6,984 nt of DNA, taken from positions 1 to 6,984 of the IMG/VR virus record IMGVR_UViG_2663763286_000013. One strand, written 5' to 3'. The position numbers were made by a program, and so were the translations under genes. Below, in pieces: positions 1 through 6,984 of this stretch (its first letter is position 1; each line of letters starts with the position of its first letter). The DNA comes from a virus. Its lineage: Duplodnaviria > Heunggongvirae > Uroviricota > Caudoviricetes. The notes beneath the pieces were generated by a model. It had not been told where the DNA came from. It was given only the letters and a program-made list of their open reading frames with translations, and did not search any database.

Positions 1-63
1 AAGAACCGTTCTGACAGCTTCGGCTTTGAACTCTTTAGAGTAACGTTGGGTTTTTCTGCTCAT
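1..63 (-). CDS. IS3-family transposase OrfA, N-terminal fragment (gene continues beyond window start)
   Basis: Reverse complement of 1-63 translates MSRKTQRYSKEFKAEAVRTVL, a typical IS3-family OrfA helix-turn-helix N-terminus. ATG is the complement of 61-63. An AAGGAG Shine-Dalgarno (complement of 70-75) lies 6 nt upstream. Not in the ORF track because it runs off the window. Confidence 0.8.
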   Translation of the reverse strand, partial: MSRKTQRYSKEFKAEAVRTVL

Positions 64-127
64 TATTAGCTCCTTCTGATGCCATTCTATTTCAGGAAGG
101 AGTGTCCGTTAAACTCAGGCTACCTCA
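1..127 (-). mobile_element. Left-hand IS3-family insertion sequence, terminal part (IR and orfA leader); outer end near 127
   Basis: Read on the minus strand from 127, the sequence starts TGAGGTAGCCTGAGTTTAACGGACAC, i.e. the 5'-TG terminus typical of IS3-family ends, about 64 nt upstream of the orfA ATG. The exact boundary is inferred, not proven. Confidence 0.55.
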
Positions 128-372
128 CTCTGGTATCTCGCGGTCGCGTAACGGCCCTAGAGGCGAATGCACAGGGAACATCCGGGATTCAGCTGTATGA
201 GGCATACAACAATGGCTACCCTTCCACCTATGGCAATGTGCTTCACCTTAAAGGTGCCACCGCTGCTGGCGAAGGTGAGTTATTCATTGGCTGGAGTGGC
301 ACGAGCGGTGACCATGCGCCCGTACATATCCGTTCGCGGCGTGATACTGATTCTGCCAACTGGTCTGAATGG
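128..372 (+). pseudogene. Upstream (N-proximal) fragment of the tail-fibre gene, cut by the IS and out of frame with the downstream part
   Basis: Frame 1 is open from 70 and encodes protein-like sequence (…[53 protein letters not shown]) up to about 372, then becomes low-complexity. Frame 0 is closed by TGA at 309-311 and 366-368 and only becomes tail-fibre-like from 369. Its upstream end abuts the IS terminus. Confidence 0.4.
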
Positions 373-1418
373 CGCAGGTCTATACGTCAAAAGATTCAAT
401 TCCCGGCGTCAATGCCAAAGGGGATCAGGACACCTCTGGTAATGCGGCTACAGCGACCAAGTTGCAGACAGCATGTACTATCAATGGCGTCTCGTTTGAT
501 GGTTCTACTGATATCACTTTAACCGCTGCGCATGTTGCTGCTTTTGCCAGAAGAGCAACGGATACGTATGCCGATGCGGATGGTGGCGTTCCCTGGAATG
601 CCGAATCAGGCGCTTACAATGTCACCCGCTCTGGCGACAGCTATATTCTGGTTAACTTCTATACCGGAGTCGGAAGTTGCCAGACCTTGCAGATGAAGGC
701 GCATTACAGAAATGGTGGTCTGTTCTACCGTTCTTCAAGAGACGGTTATGGTTTTGAGGAAGACTGGGCAGAAGTTTATACCTCGAAAAATCTTCCACAA
801 GAAAGCTACCCAGTCGGCGCACCAATCCCGTGGCCATCAGATACCGTTCCGTCTGGTTATGCCCTGATGCAGGGGCAGACTTTTGACAAATCTGCCTACC
901 CGAAACTTGCAGCCGCTTATCCGTCAGGCGTGATCCCTGATATGCGTGGCTGGACGATTAAGGGCAAGCCCGCCAGCGGTCGAGCCGTATTGTCTCAGGA
1001 ACAGGACGGCATTAAATCGCACACCCACAGCGCCAGTGCATCCAGTACGGATTTGGGGACGAAAACCACATCGTCGTTTGATTACGGTACTAAAACGACC
1101 AGTTCATTTGATTACGGCACAAAAACCACGAATAGCGCTGGAAATCATTCACACAATATACCTGTTGGTCACACTGGCGCGGGGAATGGTGTATCAGCCG
1201 GTTATAACGCTGCGTTAGGTACTGGTACCACGTCGAGCGCAGGCGGGCATGCTCACAATGTATATATCGGTGCCCATAACCACACTATCGGCATTGGTGC
1301 TCATGCCCATTCTGTCATTATTGGTCCCCACGGACACACCATCACCGTTAACGCTACGGGTAACGAAGAAAACACCGTAAAAAACATCGCATTTAACTAT
1401 ATTGTGAGGCTTGCATAA
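369..1418 (+). CDS. Phage tail fibre protein, C-terminal (distal, receptor-binding) part; probably a fragment of a disrupted longer gene
   Basis: 349-aa ORF with tail-fibre hallmarks: [12 protein letters not shown]…[15 protein letters not shown], a Gly/Thr/Ser-rich region, His-x-His repeats ([33 protein letters not shown]) and the C-terminus [11 protein letters not shown]. Its stop overlaps the start of the next gene (TAATG at 1416-1420). Confidence 0.8.
1056..1130 (+). repeat. Imperfect 30-bp tandem repeat (about 2.5 copies) inside the tail-fibre gene, encoding [10 protein letters not shown] repeats
   Basis: Codons 1056-1085 and 1086-1115 both encode [10 protein letters not shown]; 1116-1130 encodes GTKTT. 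Read directly from the sequence. Confidence 0.8.
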
Positions 1419-1996
1419 TGACATTCAGAATGAGTGAACAATCACGGACCATAAAAATTTATAATCTACTGGCCGGAACCAATGAGTTTATTGGTAAAGG
1501 TGATGCATACATTCCACCTCATACAGGTCTGCCTGCAAACAGTACCGATATTGCCCCGCCAGATATTCCGGCTGGCTTCGTGGCCGTTTTCAACAGTGAT
1601 GAGGCATCGTGGAATCTCGTTGAAGACCATCGGGGAAAAACCGTCTATGACGTGGCTTCCGGCGACGCGTTATTTATTTCTGAACTTGGCCCATTACCGG
1701 AAAATGTCACCTGGTTATCCCCGGAAGGGGAGTTTCAGAAGTGGAACGGCACAGCCTGGGTGAAAGATGCAGAAGCAGAAAAACTGTTCCGGATCCGGAA
1801 GGCGGAAGAAACAAAAAACAGCCTGATGCAGATGGCCAGTGAGCATATTGCGCCACTTCAGGATGCCGTAGATTTGGATATTGCGACGGAGGAAGAGGCA
1901 TCGTTACTGACTGCATGGAAGACATATCGGGTATTGTTGAATCGTGTTGATACAGCAGTAGCAGCGGATGTTGAGTGGCCAGTCGCCCCGCAATAA
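1418..1996 (+). CDS. Tail fibre assembly protein (Tfa, chaperone, lambda Tfa / Mu U family)
   Basis: 192-aa ORF translationally coupled to the tail fibre (ATG overlaps its TAA), with GAGG about 9 nt upstream. The C-terminal domain …[50 protein letters not shown] is the conserved Tfa C-terminal motif. Confidence 0.9.
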
Positions 1997-2039
1997 AAAG
2001 ATAAAGCCATCGATAGAAATATTGATGGCTTTATGTACT
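1997..2039. terminator. Bidirectional intrinsic terminator between the convergent tfa and acetyltransferase genes
   Basis: Perfect 9-bp stem aaagccatc (2003-2011) / gatggcttt (2024-2032) with a 12-nt loop. On the minus strand the hairpin is followed by AUCUUUUUAUU; on the plus strand by a weaker U-rich stretch. Confidence 0.55.
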
Positions 2040-2612
2040 CTATTTATACAATACAACACCGCTCTTTTTAGTAATATATGTGCAGTTCGATGGTATATCT
2101 TTATTTATAAAAGACATTGCACCTATTTTTACATTATCCCCAATTTTACGTGATAATCCAATGATGCAACAATTAGCTCCGATATCAACGTTGCTACCAA
2201 TTTTTACTCTTGAACCAGGTATGTCACCATCTATCTGTCCAATGGTCGTATTCTGTCGTAACACCAGATTTTCACCAGCATCAACAGCAAAATGAACAAC
2301 AATTCCAGCATGATGGGGAATTGTTAACCCTTTTCCAATATTTGCGCCCAATCCAATTTCACAACCAAATTTGTTAATTATTTTACTGTTTAACTTTTTG
2401 GCTGCTTTCTTATGTAATTTATTACCATTAATATGCATTTCATTAGCCAATCTCCACCAGAAAAGGAAATTCCGATTGCGCTGCCTCTTCTCTCTTAATA
2501 GTCGCCAAACATCCATTTTTTCACGCCTGATGACTTCAGCCATCCAATAGCTCAATAGAGCTTTTGAATTCCCAAAGATGACAAAGTGAATAGCTATTAA
2601 GTAACATAACAT
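2040..2612 (-). CDS. Hexapeptide-repeat (left-handed beta-helix) O-acetyltransferase, serine acetyltransferase (CysE)/WcaB-like; start codon uncertain
   Basis: 190-aa ORF containing …GCEIGLGANIGKGLTIPHHAGIVVHFAVDAGENLVLRQNTTIGQ… followed by further [LIV]-G-x-x-x-x hexapeptide repeats. AT-rich codon usage unlike the flanking phage genes. Both candidate starts (2612 and the internal ATG at 2543) have weak SD sequences. Confidence 0.7.
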   Translation of the reverse strand: MLCYLIAIHFVIFGNSKALLSYWMAEVIRREKMDVWRLLREKRQRNRNFLFWWRLANEMHINGNKLHKKAAKKLNSKIINKFGCEIGLGANIGKGLTIPHHAGIVVHFAVDAGENLVLRQNTTIGQIDGDIPGSRVKIGSNVDIGANCCIIGLSRKIGDNVKIGAMSFINKDIPSNCTYITKKSGVVLYK

Positions 2613-3100
2613 ATTGCAACTGCCTATATTTTTGGTTTCTATGGTTATATATCGACATTATAATTAAAACAATAAGCATCAGTGTGTTACTGCGTTCCTG
2701 CTAAACTAAACCAACGCACAATGTAAACACAAATATTAATTTTAAACTGAGCACTAAAGGGATGTCAATATTGTATTGATAATAAGTTGCAAGATTGCCA
2801 CTACTTTCTGTATTTTGGGATGCAATAATTTATATTTTATCTATTCAGTGTTTCTTTGGGCTTATTAAGGATGTCATTATTAATTTATGGCTTGCCATTT
2901 CTATACATATCTGTTAAAAATTTTGATTTGTCTATTGAAAATAGATTTAATTGATTGATTTAATTTTTACATGACGCTCTTTAATATAACTTCAGGTATA
3001 TTAAAGCACATGCATTATATCCAGAGAAAATTAACAAAATTGTTAGCCCTTATTTGTTGGGATTATAGATATTAATTAAGGCCCGATCCCGGGCCTTTCC
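2613..3100. other. AT-rich non-coding spacer; presumably holds the acetyltransferase promoter
   Basis: No ORF of 60 aa or more on either strand. Very AT-rich with short direct repeats (e.g. gatttaatt twice around 2945-2970). Function not determinable from sequence alone. Confidence 0.3.
3078..3097. terminator. GC-rich hairpin just downstream of the minus-strand tfa-relic stop codon; possible terminator remnant
   Basis: aaggcccg (3078-3085) / cgggcctt (3090-3097) form an 8-bp stem with a 4-nt loop. No clean U-tract on either strand, so confidence is low. Confidence 0.3.
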
Positions 3101-3337
3101 TCATTCCGGCTTTTCGGGAAACGTTACTGGAAGGATGGAGGTATCCGTGGATTCGACTTTCTGCGCATAGAGAATCCACTCGGTTAATTTTTGTTTACCC
3201 TGAACGGAAATAATGCCTAGCCGTAACTGTGAGTCCCAGAGCTGAGTTTTATCCCTGACGAGTTGTAGCAGGCTTTGCTTTTCTTTTTCCGCTTGTTGTC
3301 TTTGCATGACCGGTTGAGAAGTTACTTTGCATACCAT
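3101..3337 (-). pseudogene. Relic of a second tail fibre assembly gene (C-terminal domain only; U-prime-like), opposite in orientation to the intact tfa
   Basis: The minus-strand ORF ends …MQRQQAEKEKQSLLQLVRDKTQLWDSQLRLGIISVQGKQKLTEWILYAQKVESTDTSILPVTFPEKPE, which aligns with the C-terminal domain of the plus-strand Tfa (K-SL-Q…L-D…W-Y…V-T…WP-P pattern). The upstream part of the track ORF 3101-3598 is antisense to the holin-like gene and is not credible coding. Confidence 0.6.
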
Positions 3338-3365
3338 TACCTCCTGACAACGTAGGAGGGAACTT

Positions 3366-3695
3366 GTGCTTGACACACAGGAATTAGCTCCAGTTGCTAT
3401 TGCGCTCCTGCTTTCAGTAATTGGTGGGATAGGCACGTTCCTGATGGATGTCCGAGACGGTCGCCAGTCTGGCAATTTGTTGGGATTGGTTACGGAGATC
3501 TTTGTTGCAGTGACAGCTGGCGCGGTGGCGTACCTATTGGGGCAACACGAGGGCTGGGAGTTATCAATTACGTACTTAATGGTAACGATAGCCAGCAATA
3601 ACGGTCATGAGGTGATTTCAGGGATGAAACGAGTGAATATCGATAGCATTCTGAATGTTCTTACAAGTTTGGTGAAAAAGGGAGGCGGGAAATGA
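3366..3695 (+). CDS. lydA: Holin-like small membrane protein (3 predicted TM segments, charged C-terminus); candidate LydA-type holin
   Basis: GTG start preceded by AGGAGG (3354-3359) with a 6-nt spacer. Hydrophobic stretches LAPVAIALLLSVIGGIGTFLM, LLGLVTEIFVAVTAGAVAYLL and LSITYLMVTIA, then a basic tail …LVKKGGGK. First gene of a coupled five-gene operon. The gene symbol is by inferred homology to the P1 darA operon, not by a search. Confidence 0.6.
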   Translation: MLDTQELAPVAIALLLSVIGGIGTFLMDVRDGRQSGNLLGLVTEIFVAVTAGAVAYLLGQHEGWELSITYLMVTIASNNGHEVISGMKRVNIDSILNVLTSLVKKGGGK

Positions 3696-4135
3696 TTGGC
3701 TGGGGTGTATGCGTTCTTGCGTTAGCCTTAGCCGATCGCTATTTGCTAAAACGCAAGGACATCACGCATTTAGAACTTGGTGATGTGGAAATTAAACCGG
3801 GTTTCATCCGGGTGCCGTTCAAATACCGGTCTAAATTCCCGTTTTTGCGCGGCGCAACGGTCAGATATTGGATCCGCGATGTTCAGAAGCCAACGACAGT
3901 GATTGAAGGCGAACAACGTTGTCTGACGTCGGCTGAACAGGGCGAAAACAGTGAATGGTTGTACATACCCACTGAATATATGGGTAAAGGAGAACGGCTG
4001 TGGCATTTCAACGTCATGGTTACGCATGGCGACTCGTTCATTAACCCGTTGTATCGGATTTTCCCTGTTACTCAGCAAATCCGCAGAAGTTACGTAATAA
4101 ATCTCGCACAGGATGTGTCAGATGACGAAAAATAA
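3692..4135 (+). CDS. lydB: Membrane-anchored protein, candidate LydB-type antiholin
   Basis: ATG overlaps the upstream stop (ATGA at 3692-3695), with GGAGG at 3681-3685. N-terminal hydrophobic segment MIGWGVCVLALALA, then a soluble domain. Named by position and size in the inferred darA-type operon. Confidence 0.5.
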   Translation: MIGWGVCVLALALADRYLLKRKDITHLELGDVEIKPGFIRVPFKYRSKFPFLRGATVRYWIRDVQKPTTVIEGEQRCLTSAEQGENSEWLYIPTEYMGKGERLWHFNVMVTHGDSFINPLYRIFPVTQQIRRSYVINLAQDVSDDEK

Positions 4136-4724
4136 GTATGCAACGGTCGATTTTGACCAGGTTAATGAAAAGGGGCTGAAATCCCTTATCGCGGCGATCA
4201 ATAAAACCGGTGTTACGGTAATTGAGGTTGACTCCAGCAACCGCGCAACAACGAAAGATGGCGTTAAAGTTAAAACCGCAAAGCTGGTTCTTAACGACGG
4301 ACAAATTCTTGCCATACAGGTAAACGATACTGGCGATATATCGTCTGTGAGGCTGAATGGAAAAGCTATTCCTAACGCTCAATCGCCGGATATCAAGACG
4401 CTTGGTACCGTCATGGGGCAGGCGGCCCGCAAAAACTCCGCAAAATTCCAGAAATCACTGATCGCCAAAGCGAAACGTGTTGCCAATCCGGTAGACAAGA
4501 AACCGGCAGTAAAATCCAACTTTCAGCGCCTGCAAGAGGCAAAACAGCGGAATGCTCAGGTGGTTGCCGCTTATAAATCAGCGCAGAACTCGGTGTCTTT
4601 CAATCAACAGCAGATCACTGATTTGCGGGCGAAGCTGGATAAGGAGACAGGCCGACTCAATAACGAAAAGGCCCGAAATGGCGAACTCAAACGCCGTCTT
4701 AAGCAACTGAAAGCAGGAAATTAA
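4122..4724 (+). CDS. hdf: Hdf-like protein (homologue of a fragment of the downstream large protein) with a C-terminal coiled coil
   Basis: Probable start at the ATG at 4122 (AGGA at 4109-4112); the track ORF starts at 4113. Shares a conserved block with the next gene (…DGQ-I-I…TLG/AQV-M…KNSAKFQ followed by a Lys-rich coiled coil). The KNSAKFQ-coding 21-mer at 4430-4450 matches 5329-5349 at 19/21 nt. Confidence 0.55.
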   Translation: MTKNKYATVDFDQVNEKGLKSLIAAINKTGVTVIEVDSSNRATTKDGVKVKTAKLVLNDGQILAIQVNDTGDISSVRLNGKAIPNAQSPDIKTLGTVMGQAARKNSAKFQKSLIAKAKRVANPVDKKPAVKSNFQRLQEAKQRNAQVVAAYKSAQNSVSFNQQQITDLRAKLDKETGRLNNEKARNGELKRRLKQLKAGN

Positions 4725-4725
4725 C

Positions 4726-6645
4726 ATGGAACAGTTCAATATCAATAAAGGGGTGACGATCAAGCCTGGGCTTGACGTGCTTCCCCCGCCAGTGACTGAT
4801 GATGAATATCGCGCATTAATGGCCGGTGAGGACCGCTATCTGATGACGGAATCCAACACCCTGGAGGAAATCGAGGCTACGTTCTTCTATGACACGCCGA
4901 TCCACTGGTGTGCTACGGATTTACTGGAGGCGATTAGTTCTACTCGTTTGCAGTTACACCGGACCATGCAGGCATTTGTCCGGGCATTGAACCAGAAGCT
5001 GAATGGTACCGGAATCTCTGCGGGGAGTGATAAAACGGGGGATGTGGCCCAGAGCGGCGCGCGCGCGATCGGCGGAGCTGAAATTGGTCGGGCACGTAAC
5101 GTTAACGGGCTGTCGGTCCTGCCAGCCATTATTCCGCTCAGTGATGGTCAGACTATCAGCATTTTGTTTCATAGCCCGACAGCGGAAAACCGGATCACCA
5201 ATAGCGATACGCTGGTTGCTTTCCAGTTCTTACTGAATAAAAAAGACGTTACTCACACCGTTGCTCCGATGAGTGGACGTGATATGACGCTGGCGCAGGT
5301 CACCATGAAACTTGCCAACCTTGCAGAGAAAAACTCGGCAAAATTTCAGCGTGCGCAGAAGAAGAAAAAAGCCCTTGTTGATGAAATAACCCAACTACAG
5401 GCTGACAGTGACCAGAAAGAGGATGCCATGAGCGACCTCGTGGATCAGGTGGCAGCGGTAGAAGGGCAGAAGGTAGATCTGGAGCAGAAAATTAACGCTG
5501 TTGCATCGGAAGCGGATTCTCTTTATGAAGAGAATGAGCGTTTGCAGACGGAGATTGATCAGCTCAATCGAACTGGTGGGCGCGAAACCATTGCTCCTGC
5601 GGGGATGACTGGTGGACACTCTCGCGCGATGACGGATCGCCTTGCAAGTATCAAAAATCGTATGCATATGAACGGGGAAGTGACGCTCAGTAATGGTGCA
5701 TCAATGAAGCAATTCATTGAGGACGGTGAAGGGTATATCCAGTTAACCGATTCGGATGGCAGCGTGTACATGATCAAGGCTAAATCCATACAGGGTGTGG
5801 ACATGGCAGATGCGATCGGCAAGCTGTTTAAAGCCTATAAAGCGGGTAATGTATCGGAATACCTAGTCCAACCAGAAGAACATAAACCGGAAAACGTCGA
5901 ACCTGAACCAGCGGAGGATACCGGTAGCTCTTCGCCTGAACCAGAAGTCTCTGTAGGTGCATATCGATATGCCCTGCAAATGCGTCCGGCGGCCCCTGGC
6001 GCAATACCTGAAGGTAACAAAGCAATTCTGCCGCGCCCTGATGAAGGTGACCCGTATTATGAATATGCACGCTACGGCATTGCTACTTACGATACCCCGC
6101 TTTCTGATCAGCAAATGAGTGAGTACGACCTGAAGTTATTGCCTCGCGAGGATTCTTTCGACTTCCTGGCGAAGACACTTACTAATGGTCCGTTTGGCAA
6201 ATATGCACAAAAAGCTCTGGAGCTGGCCACCAGCTCACCAGACGAGTTCCGCGTAATGCTGAAAACTCAGTTTCAAAAAACTTTCCCCAATATTGCGTAT
6301 CCGGGGGGCGCTGGCACCGAGAAAATGGTGCAGAGCATGATCAATGCATTGCAGGCCGAAGTCGGTGAGATTACTCAGCCAGAACCTGCCCCGGCACAGC
6401 CTGATGAAACGGTTAGCGAAGCAGATGCAGAGGCTAATAAAGCCATTGAATATCTCAATAACGTGATGGATATGCAAAGCACTGACATGGCGGAGATCCG
6501 TAACGCCCGGGGTAATGTCCGGGAAGCGATTGCAGCCCTTCAGGCTGCCGGGCGTTTTGAGGAAAACGAAGAGCTGGTTAATGGCGCTGCTCGCCACCTG
6601 GCTGATCTGCTGGTAGCAATCCAGAAAGCGGGGGTAGCGGCATGA
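4726..6645 (+). CDS. darA: Large DarA-like protein (639 aa): candidate capsid-packaged antirestriction protein
   Basis: ATG at 4726 with AGGA 7 nt upstream, immediately after the upstream stop. Has a central coiled coil (…ALVDEITQLQADSDQKEDAMSDLVDQVAAVEGQKVDLEQKINAVASEADSLYEENERLQTEIDQL…) and acidic Pro/Glu-rich linkers. Its N-proximal region is paralogous to the preceding gene. Assignment to DarA is an inference from operon architecture and size. Confidence 0.55.
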   Translation: MEQFNINKGVTIKPGLDVLPPPVTDDEYRALMAGEDRYLMTESNTLEEIEATFFYDTPIHWCATDLLEAISSTRLQLHRTMQAFVRALNQKLNGTGISAGSDKTGDVAQSGARAIGGAEIGRARNVNGLSVLPAIIPLSDGQTISILFHSPTAENRITNSDTLVAFQFLLNKKDVTHTVAPMSGRDMTLAQVTMKLANLAEKNSAKFQRAQKKKKALVDEITQLQADSDQKEDAMSDLVDQVAAVEGQKVDLEQKINAVASEADSLYEENERLQTEIDQLNRTGGRETIAPAGMTGGHSRAMTDRLASIKNRMHMNGEVTLSNGASMKQFIEDGEGYIQLTDSDGSVYMIKAKSIQGVDMADAIGKLFKAYKAGNVSEYLVQPEEHKPENVEPEPAEDTGSSSPEPEVSVGAYRYALQMRPAAPGAIPEGNKAILPRPDEGDPYYEYARYGIATYDTPLSDQQMSEYDLKLLPREDSFDFLAKTLTNGPFGKYAQKALELATSSPDEFRVMLKTQFQKTFPNIAYPGGAGTEKMVQSMINALQAEVGEITQPEPAPAQPDETVSEADAEANKAIEYLNNVMDMQSTDMAEIRNARGNVREAIAALQAAGRFEENEELVNGAARHLADLLVAIQKAGVAA

Positions 6646-6782
6646 CACTATCAGCTATTGAGTTAATGGATCTCAGCGATAAGTTGGATGCTCTGATGTC
6701 CAAAGCGGCTACCGCGAGTGGCATGGAGTTGCTGGATATCAGCGATGAAATTGACCAGATCATGCAACAGATGGGGTACTGA
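6642..6782 (+). CDS. Small ORF (46 aa) coupled to the DarA-like gene; possibly a 3'-truncated ddrA-like gene whose stop codon is supplied by the IS end
   Basis: ATG at 6642 overlaps the upstream TGA (ATGA). Encodes MTLSAIELMDLSDKLDALMSKAATASGMELLDISDEIDQIMQQMGY, with an internal 14-aa duplication. Its stop TGA (6780-6782) is the first three bases of the IS inverted repeat TGAACCGCC. Below the ORF-track length cutoff. Confidence 0.5.
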   Translation: MTLSAIELMDLSDKLDALMSKAATASGMELLDISDEIDQIMQQMGY

Positions 6783-6867
6783 ACCGCCCCGGGTTTCCTG
6801 GAGAGTATTTTATCTGTGAACTCTGAACCGCCCCGGGTTTCCTGGAGAGTATTTTATCTGTGAACTC
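6780..6867. repeat. Perfect 44-bp tandem duplication of the IS terminal inverted repeat
   Basis: 6780-6823 and 6824-6867 are both tgaaccgccccgggtttcctggagagtattttatctgtgaactc. The repeat starts with the IS3-group terminal motif TGAACCGCCCCGGG. Confidence 0.9.
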
Positions 6868-6984
6868 AGGCTGCCAGATCATTATTTCCGATGGAAGCAT
6901 AATAAGCTTTTTCTGCTTCTGCCGGAGGAATATGGCCCAGCCTTTCCAGCAATCGTCGATTGTTATACCAGTCCACCCACGTTA
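6824..6984 (-). mobile_element. Right-hand IS3-family insertion sequence (IS629/IS3411-like end), right inverted repeat plus orfB 3' end; continues beyond the window
   Basis: Terminal sequence TGAACCGCCCCGGGTTTCCTGGAGAG is an IS3-group-type inverted repeat, immediately followed by the stop of a minus-strand transposase orfB. Confidence 0.75.
6866..6984 (-). CDS. IS3-family transposase OrfB, C-terminal fragment (gene start beyond window end)
   Basis: Reverse complement of 6866-6984 translates …TWVDWYNNRRLLERLGHIPPAEAEKAYYASIGNNDLAA then stop (complement of tca at 6866-6868). This is the conserved C-terminal tail of IS3-family integrase-type transposases. Confidence 0.8.
   Translation of the reverse strand, partial: TWVDWYNNRRLLERLGHIPPAEAEKAYYASIGNNDLAA

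What the first reader, a model, noticed from the sequence alone, without database searches (positions are those of the whole stretch)
6642..6823. Last operon gene appears truncated by the IS insertion; the IS inverted repeat supplies its stop codon
The 46-aa ORF ends with a TGA that is simultaneously the first three nucleotides of the IS terminal repeat (TGAACCGCC…). An insertion immediately 3' of codon 46 would explain this, so the native gene was probably longer. Loss of its C-terminus may affect the function of the whole module.
Basis: inference. Interest (0 to 1): 0.5.

Follow-up and report, generated by a model that had tools for sequence, protein, structure and literature searches.

The report
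IS629 insertion truncating phage ddrA
A common E. coli jumping gene (IS629 type) sits inside the small antirestriction gene ddrA of a P1-like phage-plasmid, cutting the protein from 121 to 46 residues and supplying the stop codon; this is an ordinary gene knockout in a prophage that is already decaying.

Summary
The ORF at 6642-6782 encodes 46 residues that are 100% identical to residues 1-46 of P1 DdrA (121 aa). DNA similarity to every P1-like relative stops exactly at 6779 (codon 46, TAC). Base 6780 is the first base of an IS629/IS1203-type IS3-family end, TGAACCGCC..., so its TGA is the stop codon.

Intact homologues continue with Gly47, a variable Gly/Ser/Pro/Glu linker and a conserved C-terminal segment. 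The refuting case, intact homologues that end here, is therefore not met.

Three points need correcting:
- ddrA is not natively the last gene. ddrB (995 aa) and hxr follow it in intact relatives.
- The window is a whole draft contig (JXWD01000094.1) that ends 117 nt beyond the repeat. The far IS end, the target duplication and the fate of the ddrA 3' part and ddrB cannot be seen. A simple insertion cannot be told apart from an IS-bounded deletion or rearrangement.
- The 44-nt IS end is present twice in tandem in this contig only. Three near-identical assemblies with the same junction carry one copy, so it is probably an assembly artefact.

The contig's other end is an IS600 that cuts the tail-fibre gene, which is also frameshifted. 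This is ordinary and of low interest.

The parts
4726..6645 (+). darA (639 aa), intact. Its stop codon overlaps the ddrA start codon (ATGA).
   Evidence: PF18788 DarA_N, PF18789 DarA_C. Collinear with P1 darA.
6642..6779 (+). ddrA', codons 1-46 of the 121-codon ddrA gene (conserved N-terminal segment).
   Evidence: 46/46 identical to P1 and Ro157c2YLVW DdrA. phrog_1855 at E = 3.8e-19, profile positions 1-46 of 114. DNA homology to P1-like records ends at 6779.
6780..6782 (+). TGA stop codon of the truncated ORF. These are the first three bases of the IS end.
6780..6823 (.). First copy of the 44-nt terminal segment of the IS629-type element (the IRR end, from the terminus to 2 nt into the orfB stop codon).
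   Evidence: The same 44 nt are the orfB-proximal end of complete 1310-bp copies.
6824..6867 (.). Second, identical tandem copy of the 44-nt IS end, continuous with the body of the IS. The duplication is found only in this contig.
   Evidence: There is a single copy in L004, L005 and L008. The tandem junction is absent from 5,426 complete E. coli genomes, PLSDB, GTDB representatives and 119 IMG/VR loci.
6866..6984 (-). 3' end of the IS629-type transposase gene orfB (last 38 codons plus stop), running off the contig end.
   Evidence: NF033516 IS3 family transposase, profile positions 347-369 of 369, E = 0.0017. 161/161 nt identical to the IS copy in pF1273-3. Annotated as IS629 OrfB or IS3 family transposase in matching records.
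1..126 (-). Context: left end of an IS600 copy (orfA start on the minus strand) that bounds the contig on the other side and cuts the S tail-fibre gene.
   Evidence: 100% identical over positions 1-130 to copies annotated 'IS3-like element IS600 family transposase'. Homology to the S gene starts at 127.

Best explanation
An IS629/IS1203-type IS3-family element (1310 bp in complete copies) lies in ddrA of a P1-like (Punavirus) phage-plasmid. It sits between codons 46 and 47, in the opposite orientation to the lydA-lydB-hdf-darA-ddrA late operon.

Shown:
- The break is exactly at 6779/6780.
- The IS end provides an in-frame TGA, so translation, still coupled to darA through the ATGA overlap, would give a 46-residue peptide.
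- That peptide holds only the conserved N-terminal segment. It lacks the variable linker (residues 47-62) and the conserved C-terminal segment (63-121).
- The event is inherited, not recurrent. Four assemblies share the junction and differ by at most 2 substitutions (one further single-base gap in the Logan contig L008) in 4.9-6.8 kb.

Inferred:
- The event was a simple transposition with a 3-4 bp target duplication (TAC or GTAC).
- The allele is null or severely hypomorphic for DdrA, a virion-internal Dar protein listed as an antagonist of EcoA restriction and packaged after Hdf/DarA.
- The 1.3-kb insert in antisense orientation is polar on ddrB.
- The loss has no consequence now, because the element already lacks an intact tail-fibre gene and behaves as a decaying plasmid prophage in an IS-rich E. 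coli lineage.
For: - Identity to DdrA: 46/46 residues match P1 and Ro157c2YLVW DdrA, both 121 aa.
- Break point: nucleotide alignment breaks after TAC at 6779. All P1-like phage and plasmid hits end at 6779, and the IS hits begin there.
- Intact gene order: relatives carry darA-ddrA(366 nt)-ddrB-hxr. The nearest is pF1273-3, 99.7% identical over window 127-6779 in a single piece.
- IS identity: 161/161 nt match the IS copy of pF1273-3. A complete copy is 1310 bp, with TGAACCGCCCCGGGTTTCC at the orfB end and TGAACCGCCCCGGGAATCC at the orfA end. The fragment matches the IS3 transposase C-terminus.
- Same junction elsewhere: GCA_045758245.1, GCA_005384205.1 and Logan SRR4176413 carry it, made with different assemblers, which excludes a chimeric contig.
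- Domain layout of DdrA: invariant N-terminal segment up to M44-G45-Y46, variable linker, conserved C-terminus. A low-confidence model has helices at 5-24 and 28-43, a coil at 44-63, and three helices at 64-116.
- Literature: DdrA is a virion protein of the six-protein Dar system, packaged after Hdf/DarA (PMC12810830), and is listed as 'antagonist of EcoA endonuclease' (PMC9024508). It is non-essential for P1 plating (PMC10695390). IS629 is a known major cause of gene inactivation and adjacent deletions in EHEC (PMC9943667).
Against: - The far end of the IS is not in the contig, and no collection yielded the expected second junction. A target duplication, the hallmark of simple insertion, is therefore unverified.
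- No contig longer than 10 kb carries the 46-aa product, and no complete genome, plasmid or phage record carries the junction.
- Loss of function of the 46-aa fragment and polarity on ddrB are inferred, not tested.
- The structure model is low confidence (mean pLDDT 47.6).
Confidence: 0.68

Rival explanations
1. The junction is an IS-bounded deletion or rearrangement breakpoint rather than a simple insertion. An IS629 copy inserted elsewhere, and then an adjacent deletion (transposase/IEE-mediated) or recombination between two IS629 copies brought its orfB-proximal end next to ddrA codon 46. In that case the ddrA 3' part, and possibly ddrB and hxr, are lost or relocated.
For: - The contig stops inside the IS, so nothing beyond it is seen.
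- Of 10 complete IS629-type copies examined, 2 (L018, L020) have unrelated flanks and no target duplication.
- IS629 with IEE is documented to produce adjacent deletions from a few nt to more than 40 kb (PMC9943667).
- No C-terminal DdrA fragment was found as a called protein. This is weak evidence, since such a fragment has no good start codon.
- In L005 the 6.3-kb segment is flanked by two inverted IS629 copies.
Against: - 8 of the 10 complete copies have clean 3-4 bp duplications, so simple insertion is the commoner outcome.
- Nothing in the data positively shows loss of downstream DNA.
Confidence: 0.22
2. The tandem second copy of the 44-nt IS end is real biology. Either a second IS629 inserted 44 nt inside the first, in the same orientation (nested or tandem IS), or the end was duplicated locally. 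Under this reading the first copy next to ddrA is a solo end fragment. This concerns only the architecture of the IS, not the truncation.
For: - The two copies are identical, and the second continues normally into orfB.
- IS629 inserting into the terminal repeat region of another IS3-family element is seen in this very lineage: in L005, 27 nt inside the IS600 end.
Against: - Three assemblies with the same junction, differing by at most 2 substitutions (one also by a single-base gap), carry one copy.
- The tandem junction occurs nowhere in 5,426 complete E. coli genomes holding more than 25,000 matching places, nor in PLSDB, GTDB representatives or 119 IMG/VR loci.
- A unit that starts exactly at the IS terminus and is 44 nt long (k-1 for k = 45) is what concatenating a unique de Bruijn contig with the collapsed repeat contig, without trimming the overlap, would produce.
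- The apparent CTC target preference that seemed to favour a real insertion was a selection artefact of my own query: CTC flanks 1 of 115 unbiased sites.
Confidence: 0.3
3. The junction is an assembly chimera and ddrA is intact in the real genome.
For: The window is a short draft contig bounded by repeats at both ends, and it carries one probable assembly artefact, the tandem 44-mer.
Against: The identical ddrA|IS junction appears in four assemblies from different projects and assemblers: two other NCBI drafts, and a Logan contig that ends 28 nt into the IS.
Confidence: 0.02

Closest known systems
P1 DdrA (P1_gp023, YP_006493.1; phrog_1855), part of the Dar antirestriction system (Hdf, DarA, DdrA, DdrB, Ulx, DarB)
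   Same: Residues 1-46 are identical. The gene sits in the same position directly after darA with the same ATGA overlap, and the upstream operon lydA-lydB-hdf-darA is the same.
   Different: Residues 47-121 (linker plus conserved C-terminal segment) are missing, and ddrB and hxr do not follow within the contig.
IS629 / IS1203 (IS3 family, 1310 bp), the most abundant IS of EHEC O157 and known to inactivate genes and cause adjacent deletions
   Same: The terminal sequence and the last 38 orfB codons are identical or nearly identical to annotated IS629/IS1203 copies. The 5'-TG terminus is present. Complete relatives are 1310 bp with 3-4 bp target duplications (PMC9943667).
   Different: Only 161 nt of the element is visible. 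It has A rather than G at position 28, a minority variant (13 of 117 ends sampled in IMG/VR). The 44-nt end is duplicated in this contig.
Classical darA-operon mutants of P1 caused by IS-associated events (Iida et al. 1987, cited as ref. 23 in PMC12810830; the content is from my own recollection, the paper was not read here)
   Same: A mobile element disrupts the dar operon of a P1-type phage, with expected loss of protection against type I restriction.
   Different: Those were laboratory mutants near the resident IS1 of P1. This is a natural IS629 allele in ddrA of a wild P1-like plasmid.

Membership tests
DdrA (phrog_1855, P1 Dar system) | Sequence homology to DdrA | tested here: met
   46/46 identity to P1 DdrA residues 1-46. 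phrog_1855 at E = 3.8e-19.
DdrA (phrog_1855, P1 Dar system) | Full-length protein of about 118-121 aa with the conserved C-terminal segment | tested here: not met
   The ORF ends after residue 46. Only profile positions 1-46 of 114 are covered. It is a truncated allele (pseudogene) of the family, not an intact member.
DdrA (phrog_1855, P1 Dar system) | Genomic position: directly downstream of darA in the lydA-lydB-hdf-darA operon, followed by ddrB | tested here: inconclusive
   The upstream context is met, with collinear genes and overlapping stop and start codons. The downstream ddrB is not in the contig.
DdrA (phrog_1855, P1 Dar system) | Packaged into the virion and contributes to antirestriction | not testable with these tools
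   Known for P1 only from the literature (PMC9024508, PMC12810830).
IS629/IS1203 group, IS3 family | Terminal inverted repeat starting with 5'-TG and matching the IS629 end | tested here: met
   6780-6823 is identical to the orfB-proximal end of complete 1310-bp copies.
IS629/IS1203 group, IS3 family | OrfAB transposase with a DDE (rve) domain and programmed frameshift | tested here: inconclusive
   Only the last 38 codons are present. NF033516 matches at positions 347-369 of 369 with E = 0.0017, far below the cut-off because the fragment is short. At the nucleotide level it is 100% identical to copies annotated as IS3 family transposase with programmed frameshift.
IS629/IS1203 group, IS3 family | Second end (IRL) and a 3-4 bp target-site duplication flanking the element | not testable with these tools
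   The contig ends at 6984, inside the IS. Pattern scans for the predicted second junction found nothing.
P1-like phage-plasmid (Punavirus) | Collinear nucleotide identity to P1-type genomes | tested here: met
   98.2% identity to P1 over window 3306-6779 and 99.6% to Ro157c2YLVW over window 2400-6779. 99.7% identity to plasmid pF1273-3 over window 127-6779.

The most novel reading that the evidence does not exclude
The tandem IS end is real and records an unusual IS629 event: self-targeted insertion into its own terminal repeat, or a one-ended or aberrant transposition product. Alternatively, or in addition, the retained 46-residue N-terminal module of DdrA, cut exactly at the boundary between domain and linker, still works as a mini-protein in Dar assembly.
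Probability: 0.1. Interest if true: 0.3.

Novelty: already known. Interest (0 to 1): 0.1.

Why it matters
It matters little. This is one more example of IS629-type elements eroding prophage and plasmid genes in IS-rich (STEC-like) E. coli. The ddrA::IS junction could serve as a lineage marker for the few strains that share it. It also predicts that, if the element could still make particles, they would lack DdrA-dependent protection against type I restriction. The practical lesson is about drafts: contigs bounded by IS copies can carry artefactual duplications of the IS end, and 46-aa 'ddrA, partial' calls at contig ends mimic this allele in databases.

Tried and rejected
1. I looked for the second junction, i.e. 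the IS629 orfA-proximal end, 0-6 nt, then ddrA codon 47 onward. Scans of metagenome, viral and GTDB-representative contigs found nothing. The first junction was also absent from viral and metagenome contigs.

2. I looked for a C-terminal DdrA fragment as a called protein, to reach the neighbouring contig. None turned up among 30 hits, only full-length and frameshifted forms.

3. I searched for a complete genome, plasmid or phage carrying the junction. There is none.

4. Most of the 86 index blocks listing the exact 46-aa product are not this allele. Among the ten contigs read, six simply end at G or GG of codon 47, just before its polymorphic third base, where P1-like variants diverge. Their gene calls are contig-end partials.

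5. I tested the hypothesis that IS629 prefers CTC targets, which would have made the tandem junction ...AACTC|TGAACC look like a true insertion. Nine CTC-flanked ends turned up, but most were selected by my own query, which contained ...ACTC before the IS end. An unbiased IMG/VR sample gave CTC at 1 of 115 distinct flanks, and none among the 13 ends of the A variant. Rejected.

6. My first attempt to test the tandem junction, with a 68-nt query, was uninformative because the tool joins two overlapping pieces. I repeated it with a 44-nt query centred on the junction.

7. An Rfam scan of 6300-6984 found nothing. The promoter scan found nothing, and the only terminator-like sites are a weak 5-bp hairpin inside the IS end.

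8. Piya et al. 2017 (PMC6011833) and Ooka et al. 2009 (PMC2765283) are not held. A search for the assembly accessions in papers found nothing.

9. The AlphaFold model of DdrA is low confidence (pLDDT 47.6), so I ran no fold search.

Full report
**What the window is.** The 6984-nt window is identical to a whole draft contig, JXWD01000094.1 of E. coli assembly GCA_000948825.1. It is a piece of a P1-like (Punavirus) phage-plasmid. It holds:
- the distal part of tail-fibre gene S and the U gene;
- an acetyltransferase-like gene on the minus strand and a U' remnant;
- the late operon lydA (3366-3695), lydB (3692-4135), hdf (4113/4122-4724) and darA (4726-6645);
- the ORF in question (6642-6782).

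The nearest complete relative is plasmid pF1273-3 of E. coli O157:H7 F1273, 99.7% identical over window 127-6779 in one piece. P1 itself is 98.2% identical over 3306-6779.

**The observation.** The ATG at 6642 overlaps the darA stop (ATGA). The ORF has 46 codons and ends at the TGA at 6780-6782. From 6780 the sequence reads TGAACCGCCCCGGGTTTCCTGGAGAGTATTTTATCTGTGAACTC.

In complete 1310-bp copies this is the end next to the stop codon of the transposase gene orfB, i.e. IRR. The other end reads TGAACCGCCCCGGGAATCC.... The last 38 codons of orfB lie on the minus strand at 6866-6984 and match the C-terminus of the NCBIfam IS3 transposase model. Matching records annotate the element as IS629 OrfB, as an IS1203-family transposase or as an IS3-family transposase.

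**Is the gene truncated?** Yes.
- P1 ddrA encodes 121 aa, and so does the homologue of phage Ro157c2YLVW. The window product is 46/46 identical to their first 46 residues.
- At the DNA level, identity runs to TAC (codon 46, 6777-6779) and stops. The intact genes continue GGC/GGT (Gly47).
- Every P1-like hit in the phage and plasmid collections ends at window 6779, and the IS hits begin there.
- Eleven full-length homologues at 73-98% identity share one layout: an almost invariant N-terminal segment ending in M44-G45-Y46, a variable Gly/Ser/Pro/Glu-rich linker (47-62), and a conserved C-terminal segment (63-121).
- A low-confidence AlphaFold model (pLDDT 47.6) places two helices in 5-43, a coil in 44-63 and three helices in 64-116.

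The IS thus sits at the boundary between the N-terminal segment and the linker. It removes 62% of the protein, including 30 of its 63 invariant positions.

**Is the junction real?** The same junction occurs in contigs of GCA_045758245.1, of GCA_005384205.1 (E. coli BvCmsHHP054, protein GCQ84210.1) and of a Logan assembly of SRR4176413. These differ from the window by at most 2 substitutions (one single-base gap in L008) in 4.9-6.8 kb, against 19 differences in 4.4 kb for the closest intact phage. It is therefore one inherited event in one lineage and not an assembly chimera.

Most other database entries with the same 46-aa sequence are not this allele. Six of the ten contigs read stop at G or GG of codon 47, just before its polymorphic third base, so their gene calls are contig-end partials.

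**What cannot be seen.** The contig ends 161 nt into the IS, or 205 nt if the duplicated end is counted. No contig longer than 10 kb carries the allele. No complete E. coli genome, PLSDB plasmid or phage record has the junction. Scans for the predicted second junction found nothing.

Simple insertion is therefore the likeliest reading but is not proven. Of 10 complete IS629-type copies I read, 8 have 3-4 bp target duplications (CTC, GTAC, GTAG) and 2 have unrelated flanks, i.e. rearrangement breakpoints. IS629 is known to produce adjacent deletions (PMC9943667). I put simple insertion at about 0.7 and an IS-bounded deletion or rearrangement at about 0.2. The truncation of ddrA holds in both cases.

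ddrA is the last gene only on this contig. In P1, Ro157c2YLVW and pF1273-3 it is followed 13 nt later by ddrB (995 aa) and then hxr. The IS lies antisense to the operon, so a polar effect on ddrB is expected. This is an inference.

**The tandem IS end.** Positions 6780-6823 and 6824-6867 are identical. The three sister assemblies have one copy. A 44-nt probe centred on the copy-copy junction finds nothing in:
- 5,426 complete E. coli genomes, which hold more than 25,000 matching IS ends. The single partial hit is an IS629 copy next to a chance ...GGAACTC flank between clpS and clpA;
- PLSDB;
- GTDB representative genomes;
- 119 IMG/VR loci.

The unit starts exactly at the IS terminus and is 44 nt long. 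That is what results when a unique de Bruijn contig, which runs k-1 nt into a repeat, is joined to the collapsed repeat contig without trimming, for k = 45. I rate it a probable artefact (about 0.65-0.7). A private nested IS629-in-IS629 insertion cannot be excluded.

An apparent CTC target preference that would have favoured a real insertion turned out to be a bias of my own query. An unbiased sample gave CTC at 1 of 115 flanks.

**Function and consequence.** According to the literature, DdrA is one of six virion-internal Dar proteins. Hdf and DarA are packaged first, followed by DdrA, DdrB, DarB and Ulx (PMC12810830). DdrA is listed as an antagonist of EcoA restriction, and DdrB as aiding DarB incorporation (PMC9024508). 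ddrA is not essential for plating (PMC10695390).

The inferred consequence is a null or strongly reduced DdrA function, and possibly reduced ddrB expression.

The element looks defective anyway. Window 1-126 is the left end of an IS600 copy that cuts gene S, which is 949 aa and intact in pF1273-3. The S remnant also carries a 1-nt deletion shared by the sister assemblies. One sister strain has in addition a further IS629 inside the IS600 end and a 576-bp deletion.

**Verdict.** The finding is real and its main interpretation is right, but it is an ordinary IS629-type disruption of an accessory phage gene in a decaying P1-like plasmid prophage. Nothing about the mechanism or the components is new.

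Noticed in passing
window 6780-6867: The 44-nt IS629-type end is present twice in exact tandem. Sister assemblies have one copy, and the tandem junction is found nowhere else that I searched. A length of 44 equals k-1 for k = 45, which suggests an untrimmed contig overlap at a repeat boundary.
   Followed up: yes
window 1-127: The contig's left end is the left end of an IS600 copy (orfA start MSRKTQRYSKEFKAEAVRTVL on the minus strand). It interrupts the S tail-fibre gene. Homology to the intact 949-aa S gene of pF1273-3 begins at 127.
   Followed up: partly
window ~370-372: A one-base deletion (GGG to GG) relative to pF1273-3 frameshifts the S remnant between the ORFs 79-522 and 369-1418. It is shared by L004 and L005, so it is not a private sequencing error.
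   Followed up: partly
L005 1-347 and L005 2684/2760 (window 2437-3012): The sister assembly BvCmsHHP054 has a further IS629 copy inserted 27 nt inside the IS600 end, so its segment is flanked by two inverted IS629 copies. It also lacks 576 bp spanning the 5' part of the acetyltransferase-like gene.
   Followed up: partly
window 6657-6680 and 6723-6746: There is an internal repeat 22 codons apart within the retained ddrA part (IELMDLSDKLD / MELLDISDEID, 83% identical at the DNA level). It corresponds to the two predicted N-terminal helices.
   Followed up: no
proteins P0013-P0030: Many DdrA variants in public data are frameshifted at different points of the linker and C-terminal region, and about ten end in the same alternative frame at 91 aa. 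These are either frequent natural decay of ddrA or homopolymer sequencing errors.
   Followed up: no
window 2040-2612 (minus) and 3101-3337 (minus): In this lineage a hexapeptide-repeat 'serine O-acetyltransferase'-like gene (phrog_2154) and a short U' remnant occupy the place of P1's invertible-segment partner genes and cin. No cin gene is present in the window.
   Followed up: no
IMG/VR loci L023 onward: Among 97 distinct flanks of G-variant IS629 ends, the base 5 nt outside the terminus is C in 54. This may be a weak target-site bias. Neither the ddrA site nor the tandem junction has it.
   Followed up: no
L006, L007, L009-L012: Contigs from other samples end at G or GG of ddrA codon 47, just before its polymorphic third base. 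The resulting 46-aa 'ddrA, partial' calls have exactly the same sequence as the IS-truncated product and inflate its apparent frequency.
   Followed up: yes
window 6789-6810 and 6833-6854: There is a weak terminator-like hairpin (CCGGG-TTT-CCTGG followed by AGAGTATTTT) inside each copy of the IS end, on the strand read by the darA operon. The stem is only 5 bp, so it is probably not significant.
   Followed up: no
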